Positions 5,413-28,911 of a stretch of DNA of 32,253 nucleotides are shown here, in pieces. The notes under the pieces were generated by a model. That model was given only the letters and a program-made list of their open reading frames with translations. It did not search any database and was not told the origin of the DNA. Numbering within the stretch: the stretch's first letter is position 1; each line of letters starts with the position of its first letter. Source of the stretch: a virus (taxonomy: Duplodnaviria; Heunggongvirae; Uroviricota; Caudoviricetes); IMG/VR virus record IMGVR_UViG_2558860288_000008, positions 1 through 32,253 of that record; one strand, written 5' to 3'. The position numbers and the translations under genes were made by a program.

Positions 5413-6603
5413 TTAATTGCTGTTAACCGAGGTGACCAGATTTGCCAGGTATTTATCGGTAATACGCTGGCGCAGGGTCAGGTTTTCAAGAGGAGGCACC
5501 GGTGTATAGTCGTAGTCGATATACAGTTTTCCGGCCTTGAGGGTTTCCGCATCGTTGGATTCTTCGCTGAACCAGCAGGTCGCATCCACGATATAGCCGT
5601 TTGTTTTCAGCTCACGGAATTTGGCATTGATACCGTCAACGATGTCGCGAATCAGCGTTGCGGTGATGGGCTTGTCCACCGCCCACATGTGCGCCTCAGC
5701 CATCGTGTCGGCCAGCACCTGCGCGGTGCGGGTGTAGTTTTCAAAGAGGAACAGCGGGTCATCAGAGCAGGTACGGTTACCCCAGAAGCGGAAACCGTCG
5801 CGGCGAATCAGCGTAGTGACGCCTGACTCGTTAAGCAGGTCAGCATCGGTGCCGGACTCCTGCAAATCCCAGAATACAGATGCACTGATGCCGGTAACAC
5901 CGTTCACCCCAACGTTGGACAGCGTTTTATGCCAGCCCTGCTCCTGGTCGATTTTAGCGCGCAGCCCCAGCGCACGGGCAGTGGCATACGCGGTGGCGGT
6001 GGTACTGGTGACCGTATCCCATGCGAGGAAATCCGGCCAGATGACCATCAGCTCACGCTGGCTGAAATTCTGGCGGTAAGCTTTCACCTCGGAAATGGTC
6101 TTACAGCCCCATGCGCTGATATACCCGAAAGCGCGCAGCTTCTGACAGACGGATACCAGTGCAACAGCCACCTCTTTGGTGTCCAGTCCCGGCACACCGA
6201 GAATACGCGGTTTAACACCGGTTACCGACTCCGCCGCCAGCAGGGCTTTCAGTCCGGTGTACTGACCGTTTTCGTCGGTGGTGCCGATGATATTGGAAAC
6301 GGTCTGCGCAAGTTTCGTTTCCTCGTCGTCGCCGGTGCCGTCTTCCACACGCACGACAACGGTGACCGGTTTTGACTGGTCGGCGATGGCCTGCAACGAT
6401 GCCGCCAGCGTGCCTTTTTTACCGGCCTTTGCAATTGCGCTCTGCACATTGGTAATCAGCACTGGTTTATTGAGGGGGAAGATTTCCGCATCCGCATCGC
6501 TGGCCGTGCAGACCATGCCAACAATGGCGGTGGATACGGTGGAAATGACGCGGGTGCCGTCGTTAATCTCCAGCACCTGCACGCCGTGATGATAGTCACT
6601 CAT
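5413..6603 (-). CDS. FI: Contractile tail sheath protein FI, 396 aa
   Basis: Translation MSDYHHGVQVLEINDGTRVISTVSTAIVGMVCTASDADA...; GGAG ribosome-binding site upstream on the minus strand; length matches P2 FI. Confidence 0.9.
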   Translation of the reverse strand: MSDYHHGVQVLEINDGTRVISTVSTAIVGMVCTASDADAEIFPLNKPVLITNVQSAIAKAGKKGTLAASLQAIADQSKPVTVVVRVEDGTGDDEETKLAQTVSNIIGTTDENGQYTGLKALLAAESVTGVKPRILGVPGLDTKEVAVALVSVCQKLRAFGYISAWGCKTISEVKAYRQNFSQRELMVIWPDFLAWDTVTSTTATAYATARALGLRAKIDQEQGWHKTLSNVGVNGVTGISASVFWDLQESGTDADLLNESGVTTLIRRDGFRFWGNRTCSDDPLFLFENYTRTAQVLADTMAEAHMWAVDKPITATLIRDIVDGINAKFRELKTNGYIVDATCWFSEESNDAETLKAGKLYIDYDYTPVPPLENLTLRQRITDKYLANLVTSVNSN

Positions 6604-6989: not shown

Positions 6990-8576
6990 ATGATACCAAT
7001 CAAAGATCTAACTCTTGGCTATGCTGATGCTGAAAATTATAAGAGAAGGGAGAATAAAGAATTACTTAACAAAGTGTTCATACGTGATAATCACCTATCT
7101 AGATTATGTGAACCAAATATATCGTTTCTTGTAGGAGAGAAAGGTACTGGTAAAACCGCATACTCTATCTATCTCTCAAATAACAATATTAACAATACGC
7201 TAGCTACAACTAAATATATAAGAGAGACAGAATATCAAAAATTTATCACTCTTAAATCTGAAAAGCATTTAAATTTGTCTGACTTCTCTGGCATATGGAA
7301 AGTTATTCTATATTTATTAATATCAAAACAAGTATTAGATAAAGAAGGGAAAATTTCAAAGTTACTAAATTATTCAAAATTCTCATCACTTAATGATGCA
7401 ATAGATGAGTATTATCTTAAGGCATTTTCACCAGAAATAATTCAAGCCCTCAGTTTTGTTCAAGAGTCAAAAGTTGCAGCCGAACTACTTCATAAGCATG
7501 CAACCTTAAAAGGTGAAGAAAGAGAGTCTTTATCTTTTTCTGAGAGCAGATTTCAGATAAATTTATTTTATATACAAAAAAAATTTGAAGAGGCCTTTAG
7601 CCAAATACGTTTATCTCAAAATCATATTTTATTTATCGATGGTATTGATATCCGCCCTTCCTCAATTCCATACGATGATTATCTAGAATGTATAAAAGGA
7701 TTAGCTCACGCAGTCTGGGAGATTAACAACGATTTCTTCCCAAGTATAAAGGGAGGAAAAGGGAGAATGAAGGCCGTTCTCTTGATCAGGCCAGATATAT
7801 TTGAATCCATAGGATTACAAAATCAAAACGCAAAAATCAGAGATAATTCAGTATTCTTGGACTGGCGGACAGAATATGTTAACCACCGTAGCTCTCAATT
7901 ATTTGAGGTATTAGATCATCTGCTTAGGACTCAGCAAGACATGGCCCTTAAAAAGGGACAGGCATGGGACCATTATTTCCCTTGGGATTCACCCAACGTC
8001 CATGATAATTATAACCACCCCACATCATTTATTAATTTCCTTCGCTGGTCATATTATCGCCCAAGAGATATATTACGGATGCTCGAAATTATCAAATCAC
8101 ACGCCAGCGGTGATGATGGGAAAAATCAATTTAGTCTAGATGACTTTGAAAGTCCTAGCATGCAAAGAGATTACTCTAACTATTTACTTGGAGAAATAAA
8201 AGATCATTTATCATTTTATTATGGAAGTGAACATTATGAGATTTTTTTAAAGTTCTTTGAATTCCTCTCTGGAAAAGATACTTTTGATTACGCTGAATAC
8301 CTCTTAGCATATGAACAACTTGAAACTCATATTAGTTCCATTTCCACAACAAAACCAAAATTCATGACAACTGCAAATGACTTCCTTCAGTTTCTTTTTG
8401 GTCTCAATGTAATATGCTATATAGAAACAACCGAAGATAATAATAGGTTTATACGTTGGTGTTTTAGAGAAAGAAGTTACGCAAATATCTCACCAAAAAT
8501 AAAAACAGGAATGAAATATCAAATATTTTATGGCTTGGAAAAAGCCTTAAACGTCGGAAAGGCTTTAAAAAAATAA
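6990..8576 (+). CDS. AT-rich accessory gene: 528-aa P-loop NTPase of unassigned family (candidate anti-phage/exclusion protein at the Z/fun position)
   Basis: Walker A GEKGTGKT (aa 49-56, nt 7134-7157), Walker B-like hhhhD (HILFIDGID), and a possible sensor-like RPRDILRML motif. GAGG ribosome-binding site before the ATG at 6990. Strand is opposite to the flanking late genes and the base composition is strongly AT-rich compared with them. Confidence 0.8.
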   Translation: MIPIKDLTLGYADAENYKRRENKELLNKVFIRDNHLSRLCEPNISFLVGEKGTGKTAYSIYLSNNNINNTLATTKYIRETEYQKFITLKSEKHLNLSDFSGIWKVILYLLISKQVLDKEGKISKLLNYSKFSSLNDAIDEYYLKAFSPEIIQALSFVQESKVAAELLHKHATLKGEERESLSFSESRFQINLFYIQKKFEEAFSQIRLSQNHILFIDGIDIRPSSIPYDDYLECIKGLAHAVWEINNDFFPSIKGGKGRMKAVLLIRPDIFESIGLQNQNAKIRDNSVFLDWRTEYVNHRSSQLFEVLDHLLRTQQDMALKKGQAWDHYFPWDSPNVHDNYNHPTSFINFLRWSYYRPRDILRMLEIIKSHASGDDGKNQFSLDDFESPSMQRDYSNYLLGEIKDHLSFYYGSEHYEIFLKFFEFLSGKDTFDYAEYLLAYEQLETHISSISTTKPKFMTTANDFLQFLFGLNVICYIETTEDNNRFIRWCFRERSYANISPKIKTGMKYQIFYGLEKALNVGKALKK

Positions 8577-8976: not shown

Positions 8977-9504
8977 TTATTGCGGCATTTCCGGCCATTC
9001 AGGATTTGCAGGATCCACACGGCTGACCAGAACGCTGTAACGTTCCCATGACTCCAGTCGTGCACGTTCCTCATCCGTCGCCATATTCAGCCTGACAGCG
9101 CGTTCCAGTGGCTGAATAACGTTTTCCGCTTCGGAAAGTAACGCGGCCTTTTGTGATTCTGCCTGTTGTTGCTGTTCATCTGCCGTATAAATCCGTTTAA
9201 CCACAGCACCATCCTTAAACATCCATTTACCTGAGTCGTCAGCACGTCGGTTGGAGGTAATATCAGGAACCTCAACAACGCTAAAACCTTCAGGATTAAG
9301 CGTTGAAGCATCTCTGGTGATAGCGACAATAATATTATTTTCATCGTAAACAATCTTTATTGTGTCTGGCTGAAAGTTCTTCACTTCCTCATACCAGTTT
9401 TTTCCGTCTTCGGACCATAACCAGATAACATCAAAATTCTTTGTTAGCTGATATTGCTCTTTTGTTTTTGGATTACCTGACTTAATGTTCTTTAAATGCT
9501 GCAT
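8977..9504 (-). CDS. G: Tail fibre assembly chaperone G, 175 aa
   Basis: Translation [41 protein letters not shown]...; immediately downstream of H; length matches P2 gpG. Confidence 0.85.
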
Positions 9505-13943: not shown

Positions 13944-14026
13944 GCATGTGAGATTGCACAATATATAAAAGTTATGCTATCTGGATTCATTTGTAGAACT
14001 ACCAGACAACATTCAAGGAGAGCGTA

Positions 14027-14812
14027 ATGGTCAGCTATAATGTGACTAATGTGTGGGGGCTAATCGTTTTTTTCCTTTGTAGCTTTGCAGTATTAGCATT
14101 TTTTAGCTTTGGTAAAAGTAACCTTATGAGGCTTATTGCACATTATTTCAATTTTGGATATTCAGACAAAAAATTAAAAAGACTTGACCGCGAGTGGCGC
14201 GACATTCAACTATTTAAAATAATTAACGGAATCAATGTATCAGGCATTGAAAATGTGAGAATGATACAGCAGGGACTGATTGATGGAAAACTAAAAACAT
14301 CGTATTTTTTCCTTACTCGCATCTGGGGTGACATAACAAAACCACCACACATAATTAAAACAATAATTGTAATTCTGGCCAGTATTTTTTACATTCTCCT
14401 CGCATGTTACATACACAACGAACAATCCGTTATAGTAAGGGATGCCATAGGCATACCATATAAAAACATGATGTACTATGTTTATAGTGACAAAGTTCTT
14501 TTATCCTTCAAAAATAAAGCAGTTGAATTTAATAAAACTTATAGCCTTGCCGATTGCAAGAGACTGCAAAACGTATTTATAAAAGACACACTTCCTGAGA
14601 TCGCCTGCAATAAGCTCTTACAGCTAAACGAGGAGGACTCCGAATGGTTAAGTCAGGAGATTAAAGATAATAACAGTCACAAAAAAGCATTATTAATACT
14701 ATCCCTCGTCTATTTCACTTCAGGTCTGGTTATATTCCTGTCATATACAAAATTCTTTTACGCCAATAAGAAGGTTTTAGAATACAAAGCATCAAATAAA
14801 AATCACTCATAA
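14027..14812 (+). CDS. AT-rich accessory gene: 261-aa predicted membrane protein (three hydrophobic helices), function unknown, at the orf30 position between S and V
   Basis: GGAG ribosome-binding site before the ATG at 14027; hydrophobic segments VWGLIVFFLCSFAVLAFFSF, IIKTIIVILASIFYILLACYI and ALLILSLVYFTSGLVIFLSY; opposite strand to the late genes; AT-rich. Confidence 0.75.
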   Translation: MVSYNVTNVWGLIVFFLCSFAVLAFFSFGKSNLMRLIAHYFNFGYSDKKLKRLDREWRDIQLFKIINGINVSGIENVRMIQQGLIDGKLKTSYFFLTRIWGDITKPPHIIKTIIVILASIFYILLACYIHNEQSVIVRDAIGIPYKNMMYYVYSDKVLLSFKNKAVEFNKTYSLADCKRLQNVFIKDTLPEIACNKLLQLNEEDSEWLSQEIKDNNSHKKALLILSLVYFTSGLVIFLSYTKFFYANKKVLEYKASNKNHS

Positions 14813-14820
14813 ACCTCTAA

Positions 14821-14851
14821 ACATTGAGCGACCAGCATGGCCGCTCAATGT
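14821..14851. terminator. Bidirectional terminator-like hairpin between the convergent membrane-protein gene and S
   Basis: Perfect 10-bp inverted repeat ACATTGAGCG ... CGCTCAATGT with an 11-nt loop, followed by T-rich sequence on both strands. Confidence 0.5.
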
Positions 14852-14883
14852 TTAATTGCGCATCAGCCTCTGCCTGGATAAAA

Positions 14884-15336
14884 CTAACGCTCAAGGTGAA
14901 CCAGGATAATCTCTTCAATCATCTGCACATCCTCACCGGTAAAGCCGAGCAGAGGACGCGCCGGATAATCAATTTTCTTACCGTCTTTCCGGTTTTCTTC
15001 CGACAGACCGAACTGATGCACACTGGCGATTTTCGGCGACTTCCCGCCGTAAAATTCCATTGATGCCTGCTCCGGGCTGGCGCGGATATGCAAAAAACGA
15101 CTGGTAATAAGTTTCGCAAACATTTTTCGCTTAACACGGCCAGTCTTTTTTCTGGCGCTCTGCTGCTGGCGTGGCGCGTAGGGTGTGCCGTCCGGGGCTT
15201 TCTGAGCCATCACCCGACGCTGCTGACTCTGCCGCAGACGTTTCGCCAGTTCGGCACTCAGTCGCCGACGCCCTGACGGTGACAGCGACTCAATCAGTCC
15301 GGTCAGCCGGTCTTCAAAACGCTTAAACTCATTCAT
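14884..15336 (-). CDS. S: Tail completion protein S, 150 aa
   Basis: Translation MNEFKRFEDRLTGLIESLSPSGRRRLSAELAKRLRQSQQRRV...; position after R; length matches P2 gpS. Confidence 0.9.
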   Translation of the reverse strand: MNEFKRFEDRLTGLIESLSPSGRRRLSAELAKRLRQSQQRRVMAQKAPDGTPYAPRQQQSARKKTGRVKRKMFAKLITSRFLHIRASPEQASMEFYGGKSPKIASVHQFGLSEENRKDGKKIDYPARPLLGFTGEDVQMIEEIILVHLER

Positions 15337-21084: not shown

Positions 21085-21257
21085 TGTCAGGAGTCCTGAA
21101 TAGTGATTAGAGGAGTCACATGTCGGCATCAGTTTCCCGACGATGCGCATCCTCCGCCATCAGTCCCGGATGGCTTATCACTGACACAACAGCACCTTAG
21201 CGAATCGCGGGGCGCGACTCAGTAGCCTTGCCGTGTATTCATCACGGCGAGGTATTC
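21085..21257. promoter_or_regulatory. Divergent late-promoter region between O (minus) and P (plus)
   Basis: By analogy to P2, the Ogr-dependent P_O and P_P promoters lie here. Only an imperfect TGg-N12-ACA element (21171-21188) and a TGTCGG-N10-CCGACG dyad (21121-21142) were seen; no exact consensus match. Confidence 0.5.
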
Positions 21258-23030
21258 ATGACCATCACCACAGACACCACTCTTTTACACGACCCGCGTC
21301 GTCAGGCGGCGCTGCTGTACTGGCAGGGATTTTCCGTGCCGCAGATTGCCGCCATGTTGCAGATGAAACGCCCGACGGTGCAGAGCTGGAAACAGCGCGA
21401 CGGCTGGGACAGCGTTGCCCCCATCAGCCGTGTCGAAATGAGTCTGGAAGCGCGGCTGACCCAGCTCATCATCAAACCGCAGAAAACCGGCGGTGACTTC
21501 AAGGAAATTGACCTGCTCGGACGCCAGATTGAACGACTGGCACGGGTCAACCGTTACAGTCAGACCGGCAACGAGGCAGACCTTAATCCGAACGTCGCTA
21601 ACCGCAACAAAGGCGGGCGTCGCAAACCGAAAAAGAATTTTTTCAGTGACGAGGCCATCGAAAAGCTGGAGCAGATTTTCTTTGAGCAGTCTTTCGAATA
21701 TCAGTTGCACTGGTATCGCGCCGGGCTTGAGCACCGCATCCGCGATATCCTGAAATCCCGCCAGATTGGCGCGACGTTTTATTTTTCCCGCGAGGCGCTG
21801 CTGCGCGCCCTGAAAACCGGTCATAACCAGATTTTTCTGTCGGCCAGTAAAACGCAGGCGTATGTGTTCCGCGAATACATCATCGCCTTTGCCCGGCTGG
21901 TTGACGTTGACCTGACTGGTGACCCGATTGTCCTGGGCAATAACGGCGCAAAACTGATTTTTCTCGGCACCAACTCCAACACCGCACAGAGCCATAACGG
22001 CGACCTGTACGTCGACGAGATTTTCTGGATCCCGAATTTTCAGGTGCTCCGTAAGGTGGCATCAGGTATGGCCTCACAGAGTCACCTGCGCTCGACCTAT
22101 TTCTCCACCCCGTCCACGCTGGCGCACGACGCCTACCCGTTCTGGTCCGGTGAACTGTTTAACCGGGGACGCGCCAGCGCCGCCGAACGCGTGGAAATCG
22201 ACGTCAGTCATAACGCCCTTGCCGGTGGGCTTCTCTGTGCGGACGGCCAGTGGCGACAGATTGTCACCATTGAGGACGCCCTGAAAGGCGGCTGCACATT
22301 GTTCGACATTGAGCAGCTTAAACGCGAAAACAGCGCCGACGATTTTAAAAACCTGTTCATGTGTGAATTTGTTGACGACAAGGCATCGGTGTTCCCGTTC
22401 GAGGAGCTGCAACGCTGCATGGTCGACACGCTGGAAGAATGGGAAGACTATGCGCCGTTTGCCGCAAATCCGTTCGGCTCACGTCCGGTATGGATTGGTT
22501 ACGACCCGTCACACCGTGGCGACAGCGCCGGATGCGTGGTACTGGCACCGCCGGTGGTGGCCGGTGGCAAATTCAGAATACTTGAGCGTCACCAGTGGAA
22601 AGGCATGGACTTTGCCACCCAGGCGGAATCCATCCGCAAACTCACCGAAAAATATAACGTCGAATACATCGGTATTGATGCCACCGGCCTCGGTGTCGGC
22701 GTGTTCCAGCTCGTGCGCTCGTTCTATCCCGCCGCGCGCGATATCCGCTACACACCGGAAATGAAAACCGCAATGGTGCTCAAGGCAAAAGACGTTATCC
22801 GTCGTGGCTGTCTGGAATATGACGTCAGCGCCACCGACATCACCAGCTCGTTTATGGCTATCCGCAAGACCATGACCAGCAGCGGACGCAGCGCCACCTA
22901 TGAGGCCAGCCGCAGCGAGGAAGCCAGCCACGCCGACCTCGCCTGGGCGACCATGCACGCCCTGTTAAATGAGCCACTCACCGCCGGTATCAGCACCCCG
23001 CTGACATCCACCATTCTGGAGTTTTACTGA
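21258..23030 (+). CDS. P: Terminase large (ATPase) subunit P, 590 aa
   Basis: Translation from the ATG at 21258: MTITTDTTLLHDPRRQAALLYWQGFSVPQIAAMLQMKRPTVQSWKQRDGWD...; the track ORF begins at an upstream TTG. Confidence 0.9.
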   Translation: MTITTDTTLLHDPRRQAALLYWQGFSVPQIAAMLQMKRPTVQSWKQRDGWDSVAPISRVEMSLEARLTQLIIKPQKTGGDFKEIDLLGRQIERLARVNRYSQTGNEADLNPNVANRNKGGRRKPKKNFFSDEAIEKLEQIFFEQSFEYQLHWYRAGLEHRIRDILKSRQIGATFYFSREALLRALKTGHNQIFLSASKTQAYVFREYIIAFARLVDVDLTGDPIVLGNNGAKLIFLGTNSNTAQSHNGDLYVDEIFWIPNFQVLRKVASGMASQSHLRSTYFSTPSTLAHDAYPFWSGELFNRGRASAAERVEIDVSHNALAGGLLCADGQWRQIVTIEDALKGGCTLFDIEQLKRENSADDFKNLFMCEFVDDKASVFPFEELQRCMVDTLEEWEDYAPFAANPFGSRPVWIGYDPSHRGDSAGCVVLAPPVVAGGKFRILERHQWKGMDFATQAESIRKLTEKYNVEYIGIDATGLGVGVFQLVRSFYPAARDIRYTPEMKTAMVLKAKDVIRRGCLEYDVSATDITSSFMAIRKTMTSSGRSATYEASRSEEASHADLAWATMHALLNEPLTAGISTPLTSTILEFY

Positions 23031-24064
23031 TGAGCAAGAAAAAAGGGAAAACACCGCAACCTGCGGCAAAAAAAATGACCGCCAGCGCCCCGAAAATGGA
23101 GGCATTCACCTTTGGTGAGCCGGTGCCGGTACTCGACCGCCGTGACATTCTGGATTACGTCGAGTGCATCAGTAACGGCAGATGGTATGAGCCGCCGGTC
23201 AGCTTTACCGGTCTGGCAAAAAGCCTGCGTGCTGCCGTGCATCACAGCTCACCGATTTACGTCAAACGTAATATTCTGGCCTCGACATTTATCCCGCATC
23301 CGTGGCTGTCCCAGCAGGATTTCAGCCGCTTTGTGCTGGATTTTCTGGTGTTCGGTAATGCGTTTCTGGAAAAGCGCTACAGCACCACCGGTAAGGTCAT
23401 CAGACTGGAAACCTCACCGGCAAAATATACCCGCCGTGGCGTGGAGGAGGATGTTTACTGGTGGGTGCCGTCCTTCAACGAGCCGACAGCCTTCGCGCCC
23501 GGCTCCGTGTTTCACCTGCTGGAGCCGGATATTAATCAGGAACTGTACGGCATGCCGGAATATCTCAGCGCCCTTAACTCTGCCTGGCTGAATGAGTCGG
23601 CCACGCTGTTCCGCCGCAAGTATTACGAAAACGGCGCACATGCCGGATACATCATGTACGTCACCGATGCCGTGCAGGATCGCAACGATATCGAAATGCT
23701 TCGCGAAAACATGGTCAAGTCGAAAGGCCGCAACAACTTTAAAAACCTGTTTCTCTATGCCCCACAGGGGAAAGCCGACGGCATTAAAATTATCCCCCTC
23801 AGTGAAGTGGCGACGAAGGACGATTTTTTTAATATCAAAAAAGCCAGCGCCGCTGACCTGCTGGACGCGCACCGCATCCCCTTTCAGTTGATGGGCGGCA
23901 AGCCGGAGAACGTCGGGTCGCTGGGTGATATTGAGAAAGTGGCAAAGGTCTTTGTCCGCAATGAGCTTATCCCGTTACAGGACAGGATCCGCGAGATAAA
24001 CGGCTGGCTCGGCCAGGAGGTCATCCGCTTTAAAAACTACTCACTGGACACTGACAACGGCTGA
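23030..24064 (+). CDS. Q: Portal protein Q, 344 aa
   Basis: Translation MSKKKGKTPQPAAKKMTASAPKMEAFTFGEPVPVLDRRDILDYVECISNGRWYEPP...; the ATG overlaps the P stop (ATGA). Confidence 0.9.
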   Translation: MSKKKGKTPQPAAKKMTASAPKMEAFTFGEPVPVLDRRDILDYVECISNGRWYEPPVSFTGLAKSLRAAVHHSSPIYVKRNILASTFIPHPWLSQQDFSRFVLDFLVFGNAFLEKRYSTTGKVIRLETSPAKYTRRGVEEDVYWWVPSFNEPTAFAPGSVFHLLEPDINQELYGMPEYLSALNSAWLNESATLFRRKYYENGAHAGYIMYVTDAVQDRNDIEMLRENMVKSKGRNNFKNLFLYAPQGKADGIKIIPLSEVATKDDFFNIKKASAADLLDAHRIPFQLMGGKPENVGSLGDIEKVAKVFVRNELIPLQDRIREINGWLGQEVIRFKNYSLDTDNG

Positions 24065-24221: not shown

Positions 24222-24240
24222 GTGCTTTCCCCGCCTCGCC
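24222..24240. other. cos cohesive-end site (19-nt P2-type sequence)
   Basis: The plus strand reads gtgctttccccgcctcgcc; its reverse complement GGCGAGGCGGGGAAAGCAC matches the P2 19-nt cohesive end as I recall it (memory, not a search). It sits just downstream of Q, as in P2. Confidence 0.6.
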
Positions 24241-24662
24241 CGCCCGCTTCATGGGTCGGTTTTAATGCAGGTGCATGACCACCATGGTGTCGCGCCTATT
24301 CTGACGGAGCACGATCTAAACTAGCAGCTCCAACGCATGCAAAACAATGCGCCTAATGCTTGCACATCTGAAAATAAAAATCGTGTAGAAAGATATAGCA
24401 AAGTCTGCATATTAAAGCTGGCTGGCACGCAACTCATATCGCAGTGATTTGCCAATTACATTGCGCAAAATTTACACTAACAACGGTTATCAAGAAGCAG
24501 GCGCAAATTGATTATCAAAAACTCGATCTAATCTATTGATCTAGACACGAATATTTATGCATCCTGATATTGTTTTAAAGGTCTTTGATTGCCTAATCAA
24601 GTCCTGCACTACTTTGGCGTACAACACTTACATAAAGTTGAAAACTACAGAAGGGCACAAGA

Positions 24663-25748
24663 ATGGGTTACGAAGTTGATTTCTTAGCAGTTGGAGAAAA
24701 AAAAAGTGGAGATGCTATCTGCATAAGATGGGGCAACCTCCACGGAACAAGAGCAGAGCAAAAAGTTGTCGTAATTGATGCGGGGTACGCAAGCACTGGT
24801 CCACAAATAATTGAACATTTACAGAAATACTATCATACAAATACTATTGACTTACTCATATCCACGCATCCAGATAGCGACCATGCTGGCGGCCTTGAGC
24901 ATGTGATTGAGAATGCGGAAGTCAAAGAGTTCTGGATTCACCAGCCTTGGGAGCATAATGAAAATCTCGCGCAGGAATTTGCTGATGGAAGGATAACAGA
25001 TGCAAGTATTGCCAGACGTATACAAGATAATCTACAAAAAGCCTATGATGCCGTCAAATCAGCGAAAAAAAAAGGAATAGAAATTAAGGAGCCTTTTCAA
25101 GGCAGGACTTGGGACAATTCTAAACTGGTTGTTATTGGACCAACACAAGCATACTATGAAACATTAATCCCCGATTTTGCAAGAATGCCTGAAAAAGCAG
25201 AAACAACTGCAACCAGTGGTACAGATGCATATAACTACTTTTTTGAGAAAGCCAAAGAACAAGTCGAGTATATTGCTGATTGGTTCTCTGATGAGGGAAT
25301 TGATGACAAGGACACAACTACTGCACAAAACAATTCAAGCGTTATATTAAAAATTGAAATTGACAATAAAACACTAGTATTTACAGGTGATGCAGGAATA
25401 ACTGCATTAGATATGGCTGCTGATCATATAAATAATAACTCATTATCATTTATTCAAGTGCCCCACCATGGAAGCAGGAGAAACATCGGTCCAGCGGTGC
25501 TAAATAAGCTCGTTGGAAATATTGTAAGCGAAGGAGGAAGAAGTGGTGTTTGTGCATTTATATCATGCGCACCGGATTCCGATAAACACCCTCATCAAGC
25601 GGTCATTAATGCTTTTACAAGGCGTGGAGCCAAAGTAGTCGCCACAGAAGGCACCAATAAACGCCATTCTAGTAATGCCCCCGCCAGAGATGGCTGGACT
25701 GCAGTCACCCCACGCTCATACGCAAGGAGTTATAAGACTGAAGAATAA
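24663..25748 (+). CDS. AT-rich accessory gene: 361-aa metallo-beta-lactamase-fold hydrolase, ComEC/Rec2-C-terminal-like (candidate nuclease; candidate anti-phage effector)
   Basis: MBL motifs read in order: VVVIDAG (Asp motif), THPDSDHAGG (variant of HxHxDH), VPHHGS, and a C-terminal ...SCAPDSDKHPHQAVINAFTRRGAKVVATEG resembling the ComEC MBL domain tail. GAAGGG ribosome-binding site before the ATG at 24663. Sits in the cos-to-A interval where P2 carries tin/old. Confidence 0.75.
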   Translation: MGYEVDFLAVGEKKSGDAICIRWGNLHGTRAEQKVVVIDAGYASTGPQIIEHLQKYYHTNTIDLLISTHPDSDHAGGLEHVIENAEVKEFWIHQPWEHNENLAQEFADGRITDASIARRIQDNLQKAYDAVKSAKKKGIEIKEPFQGRTWDNSKLVVIGPTQAYYETLIPDFARMPEKAETTATSGTDAYNYFFEKAKEQVEYIADWFSDEGIDDKDTTTAQNNSSVILKIEIDNKTLVFTGDAGITALDMAADHINNNSLSFIQVPHHGSRRNIGPAVLNKLVGNIVSEGGRSGVCAFISCAPDSDKHPHQAVINAFTRRGAKVVATEGTNKRHSSNAPARDGWTAVTPRSYARSYKTEE

Positions 25749-25753
25749 TTCGT

Positions 25754-25775
25754 TAAGCTGCCTTAGGGCAGCTTA
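25754..25775. terminator. Bidirectional terminator-like hairpin between the convergent MBL and membrane-protein genes
   Basis: Perfect 9-bp inverted repeat TAAGCTGCC-ttag-GGCAGCTTA followed by TTATT; it overlaps the stop codon of the minus-strand gene. Confidence 0.55.
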
Positions 25776-26251
25776 TTATTAGCCTTACTCACTCTTAATG
25801 TAATAAACTTAATTTGCTTAACGTACGACACAATAAAAACAAAAATCAAAAACAATGAAATCCATTTCGACGCCATGTAATCACCACCAACTACAAACGA
25901 AACAAAAAACAAAGAAAACAAAAAAACCAAGGACATAGAGAATAACGTCCTATACATATTTGCAGTTTCTTGAAGAAGCTCTATTTTATTATCCTTTCTA
26001 CATGCTGAGATATATTCCTCATATGGAACAAATTTTACCAGCCCCAAAAATTTCAACACAGGCTCAAAAACAATAGACCCAATCCTTCCGATAATTATCC
26101 CCGTAAAATAGTAAAGTACCACATTCTTAACAACATCATCTGTGGATAATATCACATTGGTTGCCCGCTCAAACAAATAAATAAACAAAGCACCGGGAAA
26201 GAGATTGTTAAATATATTATAAGACGATATTTTTTCCCATAAACCATCCAT
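25763..26251 (-). CDS. AT-rich accessory gene: ~162-aa polytopic membrane protein (about four hydrophobic helices), function unknown
   Basis: Translation ...GALFIYLF..., ...YYFTGIIIGRIGSIVF..., ...LFSMSLVFLFSLFFVSFVVGG..., ...WISLFLIFVFIVSYV...; ATG at 26249-26251 (minus) with an AAAGGTG ribosome-binding site; the track ORF begins at an upstream GTG. Confidence 0.65.
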   Translation of the reverse strand: MDGLWEKISSYNIFNNLFPGALFIYLFERATNVILSTDDVVKNVVLYYFTGIIIGRIGSIVFEPVLKFLGLVKFVPYEEYISACRKDNKIELLQETANMYRTLFSMSLVFLFSLFFVSFVVGGDYMASKWISLFLIFVFIVSYVKQIKFITLRVSKANNKLP

Positions 26252-26366
26252 ACAACACACCTTTTAACCAATTTTAAAGACGCCATTTTCATCAAAAGAA
26301 ACAAAAATAGCAAGAACATCAGAACAAACTCTTTGAACACCTGAAAATATTATGTTCCGACACCAT

Positions 26367-28646
26367 TCATTTTGTAAAAGCAGAATATCCCAAACACACA
26401 TCGATTGTAGGATATATAAACGTCTTCCTGCCATATGTTATGGTAGCCCCTCGCGCCAGCGCCTCAAGCTCCCATCGCTGCGGCCTGATACCGTTCTGAG
26501 CAAGGTCAACGCGGATACGGGTAATTTGCATTCGTTCCGACCGGGTCAGTCTGGCCGATGGCGCTATTTCATGCGGTTTTAACGGGCTTCCGTTTCTTTG
26601 CTGACGGTTTGGTCTTCTCAGGCCGTGTTTTAATGCGCTTCTGAGCGCCCTCACGACCTCCGGGTCATTCCATTCGATAACACCGTCATCTACCAGATTA
26701 AGCACTGCTGCGGCGTGCTCAGAAGGCGTGGGAGCCGGTAACGAAGTATCACCACCGGTGAGCTTTCCACAGTTATTGACAGGACTCCGAGGCGCGGCGA
26801 TGCCGCTTTTTAAAGTCAAAGGCTCAACGACCGGAACTTTCGGCACAATGCGCCAGTCCGTCGTTCTGGTGATATGAATATGACGCGCGCCGAGATGCGG
26901 CGCGTAAATGCCGACCACTCTCTCGACTTCTTCCTCGTACTCGTTAACGTCATCCGACGGGCTACGGGCGACTCTGACAGTCTGGCAATCACGCGGAACA
27001 TTTGCCCCACCCTGCGCGCTGATATACAACGCAAAATCACCACTGTCTGCGGCGGCACGTGCAGCCTCAACGCGTTCGTCAAACTCATCAGCAATGCTGA
27101 CGCCGCGAGGCAATTTGCGTAGTTCACGGTAAGCCCCCATTGTCGGCAGGCCAACCGTTTTAAATTGCGGGATGCGCCACGTTGACGCCCATGCGGTAAC
27201 AGCCGCAGCAGTATCTTTCAGCGGCCTGCCGGTATCGTTATCGAGCTGACCATCCAGTGCATAGCCGTCGATGTTTTTTGAAATGTATTTCGCGATATAT
27301 CCCGCAGCACCGCCCCGGTTAAGGTGTTTTGCCTGAAAACGGTTTCGCGCGGCTCCTCTTTCGTCGCCATCCTCTTTGAGCGCATAGCGACGCATGATTT
27401 CGATAATCTGGTTACGCTGGCGTGGATTACAAAAAAGCATCATATGCCAGTGCGGCGTTCCGTCGTGGTGTGGCTCGACGACTCGCAAACCGTAGACCTG
27501 TAAATCATTATCCTTGAATGCCGTGCGCATCAGGCTCCAGATACGGCAGAGATAACGCTGCGCATCCTTTGGATTAAATGCCTCATCGTTCCAGCCGTGA
27601 TTAAGCTGGACGGTTTTACTTTCGCCTTTTCCGACCTGACGTGTCGGGTGATACTTTGACGGCGCGGTCAGCGTGATAAACATCCCCACATCACCCTCTG
27701 CGGCGGCGTAACGCTCAATACCGGCAATGGTGTTCATCAGCTCCATCCGGCGAATTTCAGGATTAGAAATACTGCCCATCACCTTACTGATAAGGTCGAT
27801 GCGCTCGCCGGTTTCCCTGTTTTCAAGGTCACACGATTTAAGAAATTCCAGATTTGCCTGGCGGCGCGCACGCACATCACGAATGGCATGTTTACTGGCA
27901 TAAGGAGAACGGTCTTTATTGACCTCCCCGACAGCAATCAGTAACGCCTCATGCCAGCGCATACGCTGGCCTTTAAGCTGATGAGTCCACCACTCATCGT
28001 TAAACAGACGGGCAATGGCAGAATATGCCTGCCTCGTGGTCATCTGTCCTTTACGGTATTTTTTCCAGTAGAGAGGGGAAATATTGAAAGCACGTGCAGC
28101 GCCAGCAACATGACCATACAGATGCGCCTGCGCCTCATCTGTAAACAGCGATTCTTTCTCGCCATGTGCATCAACCCATGCATCGCAGAGTTCCTCATAC
28201 ATCATGAAAAGCTGCGATGAGATACGGGCGGCAAACTTTTTCAGCTCCTTGTCATTCATCCCCGGCAGACGCGCATAATGGTCACGCTCTGCCAGAAACA
28301 GCAACGACGCGTCGGTATTCATTTCATGGCGCTGATTCACGCGCTCAATACGCGGCCATAAACGGCGCTGAAAAGTGGATGTGAGGAAATAAAACCCGTG
28401 CACCGGGCTTTTATTGCGCCGGATGTAGTCATAGCGTGAAGTAAACAGCGAGCGCAAAAAGTAAGGCAGGCGATTAATCGTGGATAAAACACCTTGCACC
28501 TGACGCATCTCGTCACGTGTAAGGGGTCTTTCGCGCCCGACGGCCTCGCGTGGCGCGTTCCATGCATAAGCACCGGTAAACGTCTCACCGGTGCCTGCGG
28601 CAAATACTGACGGAGGGACAAAACGCCCGGAGGCTTTAACGGCCAT
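26367..28646 (-). CDS. A: Replication initiation protein A (rolling-circle nickase), ~759 aa
   Basis: Translation from the ATG at 28644-28646 (minus): MAVKASGRFVPPSVFAAGTGETFTGAYAWNAPREAVGRERPLTRDEMRQ...; contains a paired-histidine motif (HHDGTPHWHMM) and YxxK-type motifs (GYIAKYISKN) of rolling-circle initiators. Confidence 0.9.
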   Translation of the reverse strand: MAVKASGRFVPPSVFAAGTGETFTGAYAWNAPREAVGRERPLTRDEMRQVQGVLSTINRLPYFLRSLFTSRYDYIRRNKSPVHGFYFLTSTFQRRLWPRIERVNQRHEMNTDASLLFLAERDHYARLPGMNDKELKKFAARISSQLFMMYEELCDAWVDAHGEKESLFTDEAQAHLYGHVAGAARAFNISPLYWKKYRKGQMTTRQAYSAIARLFNDEWWTHQLKGQRMRWHEALLIAVGEVNKDRSPYASKHAIRDVRARRQANLEFLKSCDLENRETGERIDLISKVMGSISNPEIRRMELMNTIAGIERYAAAEGDVGMFITLTAPSKYHPTRQVGKGESKTVQLNHGWNDEAFNPKDAQRYLCRIWSLMRTAFKDNDLQVYGLRVVEPHHDGTPHWHMMLFCNPRQRNQIIEIMRRYALKEDGDERGAARNRFQAKHLNRGGAAGYIAKYISKNIDGYALDGQLDNDTGRPLKDTAAAVTAWASTWRIPQFKTVGLPTMGAYRELRKLPRGVSIADEFDERVEAARAAADSGDFALYISAQGGANVPRDCQTVRVARSPSDDVNEYEEEVERVVGIYAPHLGARHIHITRTTDWRIVPKVPVVEPLTLKSGIAAPRSPVNNCGKLTGGDTSLPAPTPSEHAAAVLNLVDDGVIEWNDPEVVRALRSALKHGLRRPNRQQRNGSPLKPHEIAPSARLTRSERMQITRIRVDLAQNGIRPQRWELEALARGATITYGRKTFIYPTIDVCLGYSAFTK
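26776..26795. other. Candidate origin of replication / A-protein nick region inside the 3' part of gene A
   Basis: The reverse complement of plus 26776-26795 is GCGCCTCGGAGTCCTGTCAA, which matches my recollection of the P2 ori nick-site region inside A (memory only). Confidence 0.4.
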
Positions 28647-28911
28647 ATGAGCCAAAAGCCTCTGAACAACGCTTGCTGAGTTGCTCAACCTGCGCGTTTA
28701 AATCAGCAAAAGACTTTGCGCTTCCGGTCAGAATATCGTGATGCATCAGGCCGGAAACGAGCTGGCTTAATTTCGGGTAATAACCAACCACCGCCAGCCA
28801 TTCCTGACCGGCGTTTTTACCGCTTTCCGCTCTCTTTTTCTCGTGGAGAATAAACTGAAAGCTGTCACTGGTAACGACATAACGTTCGCCAATTTCAATA
28901 CGAATACTCAT
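28636..28911 (-). CDS. Small early-region protein (P2 orf83 position), 91 aa
   Basis: Translation MSIRIEIGERYVVTSDSFQFILHEKKRAESGKNAGQEWLAVVGYYPK...; ATG at 28909-28911 overlaps the stop of the upstream gene. Confidence 0.7.
   Translation of the reverse strand: MSIRIEIGERYVVTSDSFQFILHEKKRAESGKNAGQEWLAVVGYYPKLSQLVSGLMHHDILTGSAKSFADLNAQVEQLSKRCSEAFGSYGR

What the first reader, a model, noticed from the sequence alone, without database searches (positions are those of the whole stretch)
24241..26366. Accessory island at the cos-to-A (tin/old) hotspot: ComEC-like MBL-fold hydrolase plus convergent polytopic membrane protein
In P2 this interval holds the anti-phage genes tin and old. Here it is instead occupied by two AT-rich genes of quite different character. 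One is a 361-aa cytoplasmic metallo-beta-lactamase-fold protein with ComEC-type motifs (VVVIDAG, THPDSDHAGG, VPHHGS) and a ~150-residue insertion of unknown function. The other is a ~162-aa protein with about four transmembrane helices, encoded tail-to-tail and sharing a hairpin terminator with the first gene. Neither resembles Old (no Walker A/Toprim pattern seen). A nuclease-like effector paired with a membrane protein at a known defence hotspot is a plausible but unproven anti-phage or superinfection-exclusion module.
Basis: partly seen in the sequence, partly recalled or inferred. Interest (0 to 1): 0.8.

Follow-up and report, generated by a model that had tools for sequence, protein, structure and literature searches.

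The report
Untested MBL-plus-membrane-protein defence candidate in P2
The two genes are real and sit in the known P2 prophage defence hotspot, but the pair is already catalogued as an untested anti-phage candidate (PADLOC PDC-M48), so the finding is correct but not new.

Summary
Between cos (24222-24240) and gene A (stop at 26367) lies an AT-rich cassette. It has a 361-aa cytoplasmic metallo-beta-lactamase (MBL) gene (24663-25748, +) and a convergent 162-aa four-helix membrane-protein gene (25763-26251, -). A 9-bp hairpin lies at their junction.

The pair is not new. Both proteins match PADLOC PDC-M48B and PDC-M48A over their full lengths. PDC-M48 is one of 145 computationally predicted, untested "phage defence candidates". 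The exact accession pair (WP_021533447 + WP_021533448) is already listed at this P2 hotspot in Rousset et al. 2022. I found no experimental test.

One result goes beyond the databases. In 80 species-level loci from many phyla, this MBL family is almost always adjacent to a small polytopic membrane protein. The partners fall into at least four families with no detectable similarity to one another, and PADLOC covers only the window's type.

The best reading is a two-component anti-phage module: the MBL is a metal-dependent nuclease or phosphodiesterase effector, and the membrane protein is its anchor, gate or sensor. This is inferred, not shown.

The parts
24222..24240 (.). cos cohesive-end sequence. 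It is the left boundary of the cargo island, not part of the module.
   Evidence: The sequence GTGCTTTCCCCGCCTCGCC is read directly. That it is the reverse complement of the P2 cohesive end is from my own knowledge. Linear records of phages P24E6b and 11W end at window base 24241.
24542..24571 (+). Candidate sigma-70 promoter for the MBL gene (TAGACA-18-GATATT, 9 of 12 matches), about 90 nt upstream of the ATG.
   Evidence: This is a consensus match only. The number of such sites in the region (8) is close to the shuffle expectation (6.3).
24663..25748 (+). 361-aa cytoplasmic ComEC/Pce-type metallo-beta-lactamase-fold hydrolase (WP_021533447.1; PADLOC PDC-M48B).
25754..25775 (.). Perfect 9-bp inverted repeat (TAAGCTGCC / GGCAGCTTA, 4-nt loop) at the junction of the two convergent genes. 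It is a possible bidirectional terminator.
   Evidence: -18 and -16.9 kcal/mol, z about -3.5. An 8-bp version is conserved in the 73% allele. The terminator scan did not call it.
25763..26251 (-). 162-aa inner-membrane protein with four predicted helices (WP_021533448.1; PADLOC PDC-M48A). It lies downstream of gene A on the same strand.
   Evidence: ORF. PDC-M48A at 6.8e-49, residues 4-162 of the 165-aa GTG-start ORF. No Pfam family above cut-off. AlphaFold pLDDT 89.4. No PDB fold match (best E 0.25). Predicted topology is N-in/C-in, with conserved residues on the cytoplasmic face.
26349..26378 (-). Candidate sigma-70 promoter for the membrane-protein gene (TTTACA-18-CATAAT, 10 of 12 matches). 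It overlaps the end of gene A.
   Evidence: This is a consensus match only.

Best explanation
The island is a self-contained two-gene accessory cassette, equal to the PADLOC candidate system PDC-M48, carried in the P2 cos-proximal defence hotspot. It most likely acts as an anti-phage or superinfection-exclusion module.

**Shown**
- The large protein is a soluble ComEC/Pce-type MBL-fold enzyme with an intact, invariant di-metal site.
- The small protein is a four-helix membrane protein whose conserved polar residues lie on the predicted cytoplasmic face.
- The two genes travel together across phyla, in several gene orders.

**Inferred**
- The MBL is the catalytic effector, most probably a metal-dependent DNA nuclease or phosphodiesterase. 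Related defence-associated MBLs and ComEC work this way.
- The membrane protein anchors, gates or senses for the MBL at the inner membrane. The enzyme would then act only on infection, or only on DNA entering at the membrane.
- There is no protease gene in the island, so activation would differ from the protease-cleaved Avs-linked MBL zymogens.
For: **Identity of the pair**
- Both genes match PDC-M48B and PDC-M48A over their full lengths.
- The exact accession pair is listed at the gpA-gpQ hotspot, which normally holds old and tin and many validated systems.

**The MBL as an enzyme**
- The fold is ComEC/Pce-type.
- The catalytic residues are invariant.
- The next-best PADLOC hits are the MBL effector modules LmuA (5.6e-28), RTasMBL (3.9e-21) and Avs1a (1.3e-15).
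- The Avs-linked MBL was shown to be a Zn-dependent dsDNA nuclease (preprint PMC12642450).

**Linkage to a membrane partner**
- In 80 species-level loci, 72 have a recognisable small polytopic membrane protein; 67 of these are adjacent or overlapping. The other 8 loci are mostly truncated contigs or partial MBL genes.
- The pair keeps its convergent layout from 100% down to 54% MBL identity. It does so in P2/186-like prophages of Yersinia and in a Pantoea chromosomal site next to an AbiJ-like gene.
- Elsewhere the pair sits directly after a type I RM operon or next to DUF4365.
- No third gene is conserved.

**Selection**
- Both genes are under purifying selection.
Against: - I found no experimental test of this pair. 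PDC systems are explicitly untested. Literature searches for PDC-M48 and for the accessions returned nothing.
- Flanking genes in the 80 loci are heterogeneous. Many are housekeeping genes, and only a minority are methylases, integrases or Cas. Defence-island enrichment was therefore not demonstrated here.
- The substrate is unknown. The second-best structural relative is a phosphorylcholine esterase (Pce), not a nuclease.
- Membrane proteins are usually regarded as effectors in defence systems, and both parts here look effector-like, so it is unclear which part senses infection.
- Physical interaction between the two proteins was not tested.
Confidence: 0.5

Rival explanations
1. The roles are reversed. 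The small membrane protein is the killing effector (membrane depolarisation or pore formation, giving abortive infection). The MBL enzyme is the sensor, regulator or antitoxin that controls it.
For: - The membrane partner is the exchangeable part. At least four partner families with no detectable similarity to one another are scattered over the MBL tree. In modular defence systems the swapped part is usually the effector.
- Rousset et al. note that transmembrane proteins in defence systems are believed to be suicide effectors.
- The two genes have separate candidate promoters and are convergent, as expected if they are regulated independently.
Against: - The MBL metal site is invariant, and related MBLs are effectors in Lamassu, DRT and Avs contexts.
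- The type-1 membrane protein has strongly conserved polar motifs on its cytoplasmic face rather than a generic pore-former pattern.
- There is only a sub-threshold holin hit (E 0.051).
Confidence: 0.17
2. The cassette is not a defence system. It is cargo with another role, for example a membrane-associated phosphodiesterase acting on envelope or lipid phosphodiesters (Pce- or NAPE-PLD-like), or a DNA-processing function related to ComEC.
For: - The hotspot also carries non-defence cargo such as partition systems and toxins.
- Many chromosomal neighbours in the 80 loci are housekeeping genes.
Against: - The pair was originally picked up because it occurs embedded inside BREX, DISARM or type I RM systems.
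- It is seen here next to type I RM, AbiJ-like and DUF4365 genes.
- Its closest sequence relatives outside the family are defence effector modules.
- It has a patchy, mobile distribution: 45 of 5426 complete E. coli genomes, all in the P2 hotspot in the two sampled.
Confidence: 0.15
3. The pair serves the phage's own cycle, for example degrading host or competitor DNA during lytic growth, or countering host defences, rather than protecting the lysogen.
For: - The membrane-protein gene lies directly downstream of gene A on the same strand, so it could be read through from the early operon.
- The cassette is carried by viable phages (12W, D8, 11W, P24E6b).
Against: - The same pair occurs in non-prophage chromosomal sites and across phyla without P2 genes.
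- The NAR 2026 survey found very few anti-defence genes in P2.
Confidence: 0.08

Closest known systems
PADLOC PDC-M48 (phage defence candidate; Payne et al. 2024 bioRxiv 10.1101/2024.01.29.577857)
   Same: Both window proteins match its two components over their full lengths (PDC-M48B 6.4e-99, PDC-M48A 6.8e-49), and the genes are adjacent. This is the same thing.
   Different: No difference in content. PDC-M48 is only a computational candidate from guilt-by-embedding and is untested. In the models I probed it covers only the type-1 membrane partner. The type 2, 3 and 6 partners found here have no PADLOC hit.
"hypothetical + Lactamase_B" arrangement at the P2 gpA-gpQ hotspot (Rousset et al. 2022, Table S5; PMC9122126)
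   Same: The accessions are identical (WP_021533448 + WP_021533447) and the locus is the same.
   Different: It is only listed there. The accessions occur in one stored supplementary file, the hotspot locus table. I did not find them among the cloned and tested systems, but some stored files are truncated.
Beta-lactamase-like domain of ComEC (PDB 9ic4)
   Different: ComEC's MBL domain is fused to an OB fold and a large competence channel. Here the MBL is a separate soluble protein with about 120 extra residues. Its membrane partner is a four-helix protein with no match to any Pfam family above cut-off, the Competence domain included. The TIGR00361 score is 50.9 against a cut-off of 190.
Protease-gated MBL effectors of Avs, Hachiman (HamMAB) and DRT systems (Avs1a; Evans et al. 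2025 preprint PMC12642450)
   Same: They share the defence-associated MBL lineage at profile level (Avs1a 1.3e-15, RTasMBL 3.9e-21). The Avs-linked member is a latent Zn-dependent dsDNA nuclease. The window protein also has a variable, low-confidence linker (residues 182-193).
   Different: No protease or STAND gene is present. The NCBIfam Avs1a score is far below cut-off (62.7 against 420). The partner is a small membrane protein.
DefensePredictor system "PRO1" (reads as DS-42 in the flattened supplementary table; Science 2026, PMC13092281)
   Same: It is an E. coli system listed in that paper's supplementary table with a DS number, and it is built around a standalone 363-aa ComEC-like MBL hydrolase annotated as an LmuA-hydrolase/Avs1A homologue.
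   Different: Its MBL is only marginally similar (BLASTP E 0.025; hhalign probability 50%). Neither of its two partners looks like a polytopic membrane protein by eye (not computed).
Rst_Hydrolase-3Tm (HAD-like hydrolase + transmembrane protein, from P4; Rousset et al. 2022)
   Same: The logic is analogous: a hydrolase plus a small membrane protein in a phage or satellite hotspot, with activity against T7.
   Different: Its hydrolase is of the HAD fold, not MBL, and it is in the P4 hotspot rather than P2. The two are not homologous. I recalled this system from memory as a lead and rejected it on reading the paper.

Membership tests
PADLOC PDC-M48 candidate system | Match to the PDC-M48B (MBL) profile | tested here: met
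   PDLC04676, E 6.4e-99, residues 3-355 on profile positions 5-353 of 357.
PADLOC PDC-M48 candidate system | Match to the PDC-M48A (membrane protein) profile | tested here: met
   PDLC04670, E 6.8e-49, residues 4-162 on profile positions 1-162 of 164.
PADLOC PDC-M48 candidate system | The two genes are adjacent | tested here: met
   A 14-nt spacer separates the convergent stop codons.
PADLOC PDC-M48 candidate system | Demonstrated anti-phage activity | not testable with these tools
   PDCs are described as untested or unvalidated. No paper was found for PDC-M48 or for the accessions.
Metallo-beta-lactamase superfamily, ComEC/Pce-type | Pfam Lactamase_B score above the gathering cut-off | tested here: met
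   50.9 bits against a cut-off of 22.7.
Metallo-beta-lactamase superfamily, ComEC/Pce-type | Metal-binding motifs (HxDxDH, a downstream D, and HH) are present and conserved | tested here: met
   H69, D71, D73, H74, D243, H268 and H269 are invariant in 47 sequences. They align to the ComEC motifs.
Metallo-beta-lactamase superfamily, ComEC/Pce-type | MBL fold closest to ComEC and Pce | tested here: met
ComEC/Rec2 competence protein (the RefSeq name for this protein) | Full-length match including the polytopic competence channel domain | tested here: not met
   TIGR00361 scores 50.9 bits against a cut-off of 190, and only profile positions 558-660 match. The protein has no transmembrane segment. 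The RefSeq name overstates what is there.
Avs1a / protease-gated MBL module | NCBIfam Avs1a equivalog score above cut-off | tested here: not met
   62.7 bits against a cut-off of 420.
Avs1a / protease-gated MBL module | Adjacent protease or STAND NTPase gene | tested here: not met
   Only two ORFs with homologues lie between cos and gene A. Neither has a protease or NTPase domain.
Lamassu (LmuA hydrolase effector) | Presence of the LmuB SMC-like partner | tested here: not met
   The LmuA profile hits the MBL region (5.6e-28), but there is no other gene in the island.
P2 Old / Tin | Homology to the Old (ATPase-Toprim) or Tin profiles | tested here: not met
   Neither protein has a PADLOC, Pfam or NCBIfam hit of that kind.
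Rst_Hydrolase-3Tm | HAD-like hydrolase component | tested here: not met
   The hydrolase here is MBL-fold. The Rousset system is HAD-like and comes from P4.

The most novel reading that the evidence does not exclude
The window's pair may be one branch of a much larger, phylum-spanning family that is only partly catalogued. In that family a ComEC-like MBL nuclease would be coupled to interchangeable small inner-membrane proteins (at least four families with no detectable similarity to one another). That would be a membrane-coupled way of licensing or positioning a defence nuclease without a protease.

Two concrete versions are possible:
- A "ComEC in trans" that attacks phage DNA as it enters at the membrane.
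- A membrane partner that opens an auto-inhibited MBL. S59 and K145 are invariant and both lie on the predicted cytoplasmic face.
Probability: 0.3. Interest if true: 0.65.

Novelty: already known. Interest (0 to 1): 0.35.

Why it matters
If the pair protects against phage, it would add a validated system to the P2 hotspot repertoire. It would also give a simple two-gene model for how a latent MBL nuclease is controlled from the membrane, which differs from the protease-cleaved MBL zymogens described in 2025.

The partner-swapping pattern seen here suggests that current defence-finder models miss most of this family. Of 72 loci with a typed partner, 62 have a partner type with no PADLOC hit for the representatives I scanned. 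As it stands, the finding confirms an existing, untested prediction.

Tried and rejected
1. **Rst_Hydrolase-3Tm (a lead from memory).** Rejected. The paper says that system is a HAD-like hydrolase from P4.
2. **Literature searches.** Searches for PDC-M48, for the six RefSeq accessions and for MBL-fold plus phage defence plus transmembrane found no experimental study of this pair. The NAR 2026 P2/P4 paper has no stored supplements.
3. **Homology among the membrane-partner types.** Jackhmmer did not link them. hhalign gave probabilities of 5% or less, except types 2 and 3 at 57% over 30 columns. A trimmed type 1 against type 3 comparison gave E 0.22. By eye, types 1 and 3 share an N-terminal "SYN..xxP" motif and an "N.Y.R" motif, but this is not significant.
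4. **Fold of the membrane protein.** There is no PDB match (best E 0.25). The afdb50 library was unavailable.
5. **Defence enrichment of neighbours.** Scanning 116 flanking ORFs gave a heterogeneous mix with no conserved third gene and no clear enrichment. The longest ORFs were excluded by the size cap, which biases against large defence proteins.
6. **DefensePredictor PRO1.** It is a different, barely related MBL with partners that do not look like membrane proteins.
7. **6A-MBL.** There is only a 41-residue motif-level hit (2e-08 against a cut-off of 220 bits), so the protein is not a member.
8. **Not possible here.** Structure prediction of the two-protein complex and inspection of active-site occlusion could not be done with the tools or caps available.
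Full report
**1. What is in the sequence**

The interval 24241-26366 lies between two landmarks.
- On the left is the P2-type cohesive-end sequence (GTGCTTTCCCCGCCTCGCC, 24222-24240). Linear records of P2-like phages end at window base 24241.
- On the right is the replication gene A ORF (26367-28688, minus strand).
- Upstream are the terminase (21228-23030) and portal (23030-24064) genes.

GC drops from 0.52-0.59 in the flanks to 0.33-0.44 in the island.

The island holds two substantial ORFs.
- A 361-aa protein at 24663-25748 (+).
- A convergent small protein at 25763-26251 (-). It is 162 aa from the ATG used by RefSeq and phage records, which has an AAGGTG Shine-Dalgarno-like sequence upstream. 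It is 165 aa from an upstream GTG.

The stop codons are 14 nt apart. A perfect 9-bp inverted repeat (25754-25762 / 25767-25775) spans the junction. It folds at -18 and -16.9 kcal/mol on the two strands (z about -3.5), and an 8-bp version is kept in a diverged allele. Its loop contains the small gene's stop codon and its U-tracts are weak. The terminator scan did not report it, so terminator function is plausible but not shown.

Candidate sigma-70 promoters lie about 90-100 nt upstream of each gene (24542-24571 on the plus strand; 26378-26349 on the minus strand). These are consensus matches only. The small gene is on the same strand as gene A, so read-through from the early operon is also possible.

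**2. The genes are real**

- The exact proteins occur on about 630-660 contigs.
- The DNA is 100% identical in phages 12W, D8, 11W and P24E6b.
- It is at least 99% identical in 22 complete E. coli genomes. Another 23 genomes carry a roughly 73% identical allele, so 45 of 5426 genomes have the cassette.
- In the one genome examined for each allele, the cassette sits in the portal-to-gene-A interval of a P2-like prophage.
- Between the alleles the MBL is 75% and the membrane protein 64% identical. Synonymous sites are near saturation (pS 0.75 and 0.67) and pN is 0.14 and 0.24. That indicates purifying selection on both genes.

**3. The large protein**

- Pfam Lactamase_B scores above threshold (50.9 bits against 22.7).
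- An AlphaFold model built on 47 homologues is confident (pLDDT 89.6, pTM 0.89). Its only disordered stretch is residues 182-193.
- A profile search of PDB sequences aligns the motif blocks STHPDxDHxGGL, NNSS and PHHGSR with ComEC.
- H69, D71, D73, H74, D243, H268 and H269 are invariant in the family.
- The protein has no hydrophobic segment, so it is cytoplasmic.

Between the two aligned blocks the family has 129 residues where ComEC has 58. It carries invariant residues (W96, F106, D108-G109-R110, D113, S115, W207, D210). The LmuA and RTasMBL profile matches cover it, and the Avs1a match covers it from residue 126.

The RefSeq name "ComEC/Rec2 family competence protein" is not justified. TIGR00361 scores 50.9 against a cut-off of 190 and matches only the MBL tail of that model.

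**4. The small protein**

- No Pfam or NCBIfam family is hit above threshold.
- The AlphaFold model (pLDDT 89.4) has four long helices at 10-31, 40-68, 89-121 and 126-157, plus a short one at 77-86.
- No solved structure resembles it (best E 0.25).
- Hydropathy gives three clear transmembrane segments. The fourth, N-terminal helix falls below the peak threshold used.
- The two short loops (32-41 and 122-127) have no Lys or Arg and are the least conserved parts. The N-terminus, the 64-100 loop and the C-terminal tail carry the positive charges and nearly all the invariant residues: K7, Y11, N15, P19, G20, R56, G58, S59, R101, Y143, K145 and Q146.
- This fits an N-in/C-in topology with a conserved cytoplasmic face, which is where a cytoplasmic partner could dock. 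That last step is inference.

NCBI records widely call this family "phosphohistidine phosphatase". Nothing here supports that name.

**5. What is already known about the pair**

- Both proteins match, over their full lengths, the two components of PADLOC PDC-M48: PDC-M48B at 6.4e-99 and PDC-M48A at 6.8e-49.
[quoted passage not shown] They were predicted because they occur embedded inside BREX, DISARM or type I RM systems. The authors call them untested (bioRxiv 10.1101/2024.01.29.577857). The DefensePredictor authors call them unvalidated.
- The window's proteins are WP_021533447.1 and WP_021533448.1. That exact pair is listed as "hypothetical + Lactamase_B" among the gpA-gpQ hotspot loci in the supplementary tables of Rousset et al. 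2022 (PMC9122126). That paper established this interval, which holds old and tin in P2, as a defence hotspot.
- I did not find the pair among the systems they cloned. Some stored supplement files are truncated.
- Searches of the paper library for PDC-M48, for the accessions and for MBL-fold defence systems with transmembrane partners returned no experimental study.

**6. Leads that did not hold**

- I recalled "Hydrolase-3TM" (Rst_Hydrolase-3Tm) as a possible identity. The paper shows it is a HAD-like hydrolase from the P4 hotspot, so it is not this system.
- DefensePredictor lists with a DS number a three-gene E. coli system, PRO1, built on a ComEC-like MBL. Its MBL is barely related to this one (BLASTP E 0.025; hhalign probability 50%), and neither of its two partners looks like a polytopic membrane protein (by eye, not computed).
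- The NCBIfam hits to Avs1a and 6A-MBL are far below their cut-offs.

The MBL family is large: 2399 database clusters at E of 1e-5 or better, nearly all about 360-370 aa.

A scan of one genome per species returned 80 loci from many lineages: Gamma-, Alpha- and Betaproteobacteria, Acidobacteriota, Planctomycetota, Bacteroidota, Actinomycetota, Cyanobacteria, Campylobacterota, Saccharibacteria and others.

In 72 of the 80 loci a small polytopic membrane protein of a recognisable type is present, and in 67 it is adjacent or overlapping. The partner types are:

| Partner type | Approximate length | Loci |
|---|---|---|
| Type 1 (the window's type) | 165 aa | 10 |
| Type 2 | 215 aa | 25 |
| Type 3 | 240 aa | 34 |
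| Type 6 | 165 aa | 3 |

The eight untyped loci are mostly at contig ends or have partial MBL genes. L075 and L079 have another two-TM neighbour.

- The types are not detectably homologous to one another.
- Types 2, 3 and 6 have no PADLOC or significant Pfam hit.
- On a neighbour-joining tree of the MBLs the partner types are interspersed. The window's MBL is sister to a type-2-partnered gammaproteobacterial clade, although its own partner is type 1 (no bootstrap).
- Gene order also varies: membrane gene first, MBL gene first, or convergent.
- The type-1 membrane protein in turn is found next to MBL genes in Firmicutes, where a shorter 297-aa MBL lies beside a DUF4365 gene. In an unclassified bacterium it lies directly after a type I RM operon.
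- In Enterobacterales the convergent cassette is kept from 100% down to 54% MBL identity. It appears in a Yersinia P2/186-like prophage at the same hotspot and in a Pantoea chromosomal site next to an AbiJ-like gene.
- A scan of 116 flanking ORFs found no conserved third gene. The neighbours are a mixed set: a few methylases, integrases, recombinases, one Cas protein and one KAP NTPase, but also housekeeping genes. The module is therefore a two-gene unit. Defence-island enrichment was not established by my sample.

**8. How it most likely works**

Shown:
- An intact ComEC/Pce-type di-metal hydrolase.
- An obligate genomic association with a small inner-membrane protein.
- Mobility of the pair between phage hotspots and chromosomal sites near defence genes.

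From the literature:
- Defence-associated MBLs of the Avs, Hachiman and DRT lineage are effector modules.
- The Avs2-linked MBL is a zymogen. A phage-activated protease cleaves it at two linkers, and it then becomes a Zn-dependent dsDNA nuclease (preprint PMC12642450).
- HamMAB requires its MBL (PMC13069673).

Inferred:
- The window's MBL is the catalytic effector, most likely a nuclease.
- There is no protease here, so the membrane partner would provide localisation, gating or sensing.
- The variable, disordered linker at 176-198 could be an auto-inhibitory element by analogy. This is speculation.

I put about 0.5 on this reading. The rivals are:
- Reversed roles, with the membrane protein as the killer (0.17).
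- A non-defence role (0.15).
- A phage-cycle role (0.08).

**9. Novelty and verdict**

However, the pair is an exact member of an already catalogued candidate system and was already listed at this locus. I rate it "already known" as a candidate with unknown mechanism, and set interest at 0.35.

The part that may be worth pursuing is the partner-swapping pattern. Most of the family, namely the loci with type 2, 3 or 6 partners, is not captured by the PADLOC models I tested.

Noticed in passing
window 6990-8576 (+): There is a second AT-rich island (GC about 0.34) between the tail sheath gene (5413-6603, -) and the tail-fibre assembly gene (8977-9504, -). It encodes a 528-aa protein with no Pfam or PADLOC hit. 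The protein is 91% identical to proteins that NCBI names "funZ protein" or "P-loop ATPase, Sll1717 family". This is the classical P2 Z/fun cargo gene at the second P2 hotspot (the last point is from my own knowledge).
   Followed up: yes
window 14027-14812 (+): There is a third AT-rich island (GC about 0.37 over 14001-15000) with a 261-aa ORF that has no Pfam or PADLOC hit. I did not look for homologues. It may be another accessory gene.
   Followed up: partly
window 25763-26251 (-) and 24663-25748 (+): Public annotations of both genes are misleading.
- The membrane-protein family is widely named "phosphohistidine phosphatase", with no profile support.
- The MBL is called "tail protein" in NC_049389. 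This label probably comes from PHROG 7043, whose 1077-position profile it matches only at positions 619-901.
- RefSeq calls the MBL a "ComEC/Rec2 family competence protein", although it scores below that model's cut-off.
   Followed up: partly
L084 5403-5840 (E. coli 4/1-1, NZ_CP023844): The roughly 73% identical allele of the cassette carries an extra 145-aa hypothetical gene (WP_001752367) upstream of the MBL gene. It has no Pfam hit. The window has no counterpart in its 420-nt cos-to-MBL spacer. Whether this is a third component or separate cargo is unknown.
   Followed up: partly
L003-L082 (genome-contig loci): The same MBL family is paired with at least three further small membrane-protein families: type 2 (about 215 aa, 25 loci), type 3 (about 240 aa, 34 loci) and type 6 (3 loci). 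None has a PADLOC hit or a significant Pfam hit. On the MBL tree the partner types are interspersed.
   Followed up: partly
L085 5001-6436; L088 5001-6576; L091 3430-6604: The type-1 membrane protein plus an MBL also occur outside P2 prophages.
- In Faecalibacillus, with a shorter 297-aa MBL, beside a DUF4365 gene.
- In an unclassified bacterium, directly after a type I RM operon.
- In Pantoea, next to an AbiJ-like gene.
   Followed up: partly
window 26349-26378 (-) and 26367: The best promoter-like site for the membrane-protein gene overlaps the last codons and stop of gene A. The two genes are on the same strand, so the membrane-protein gene could be expressed both constitutively and by read-through from the early operon.
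   Followed up: no
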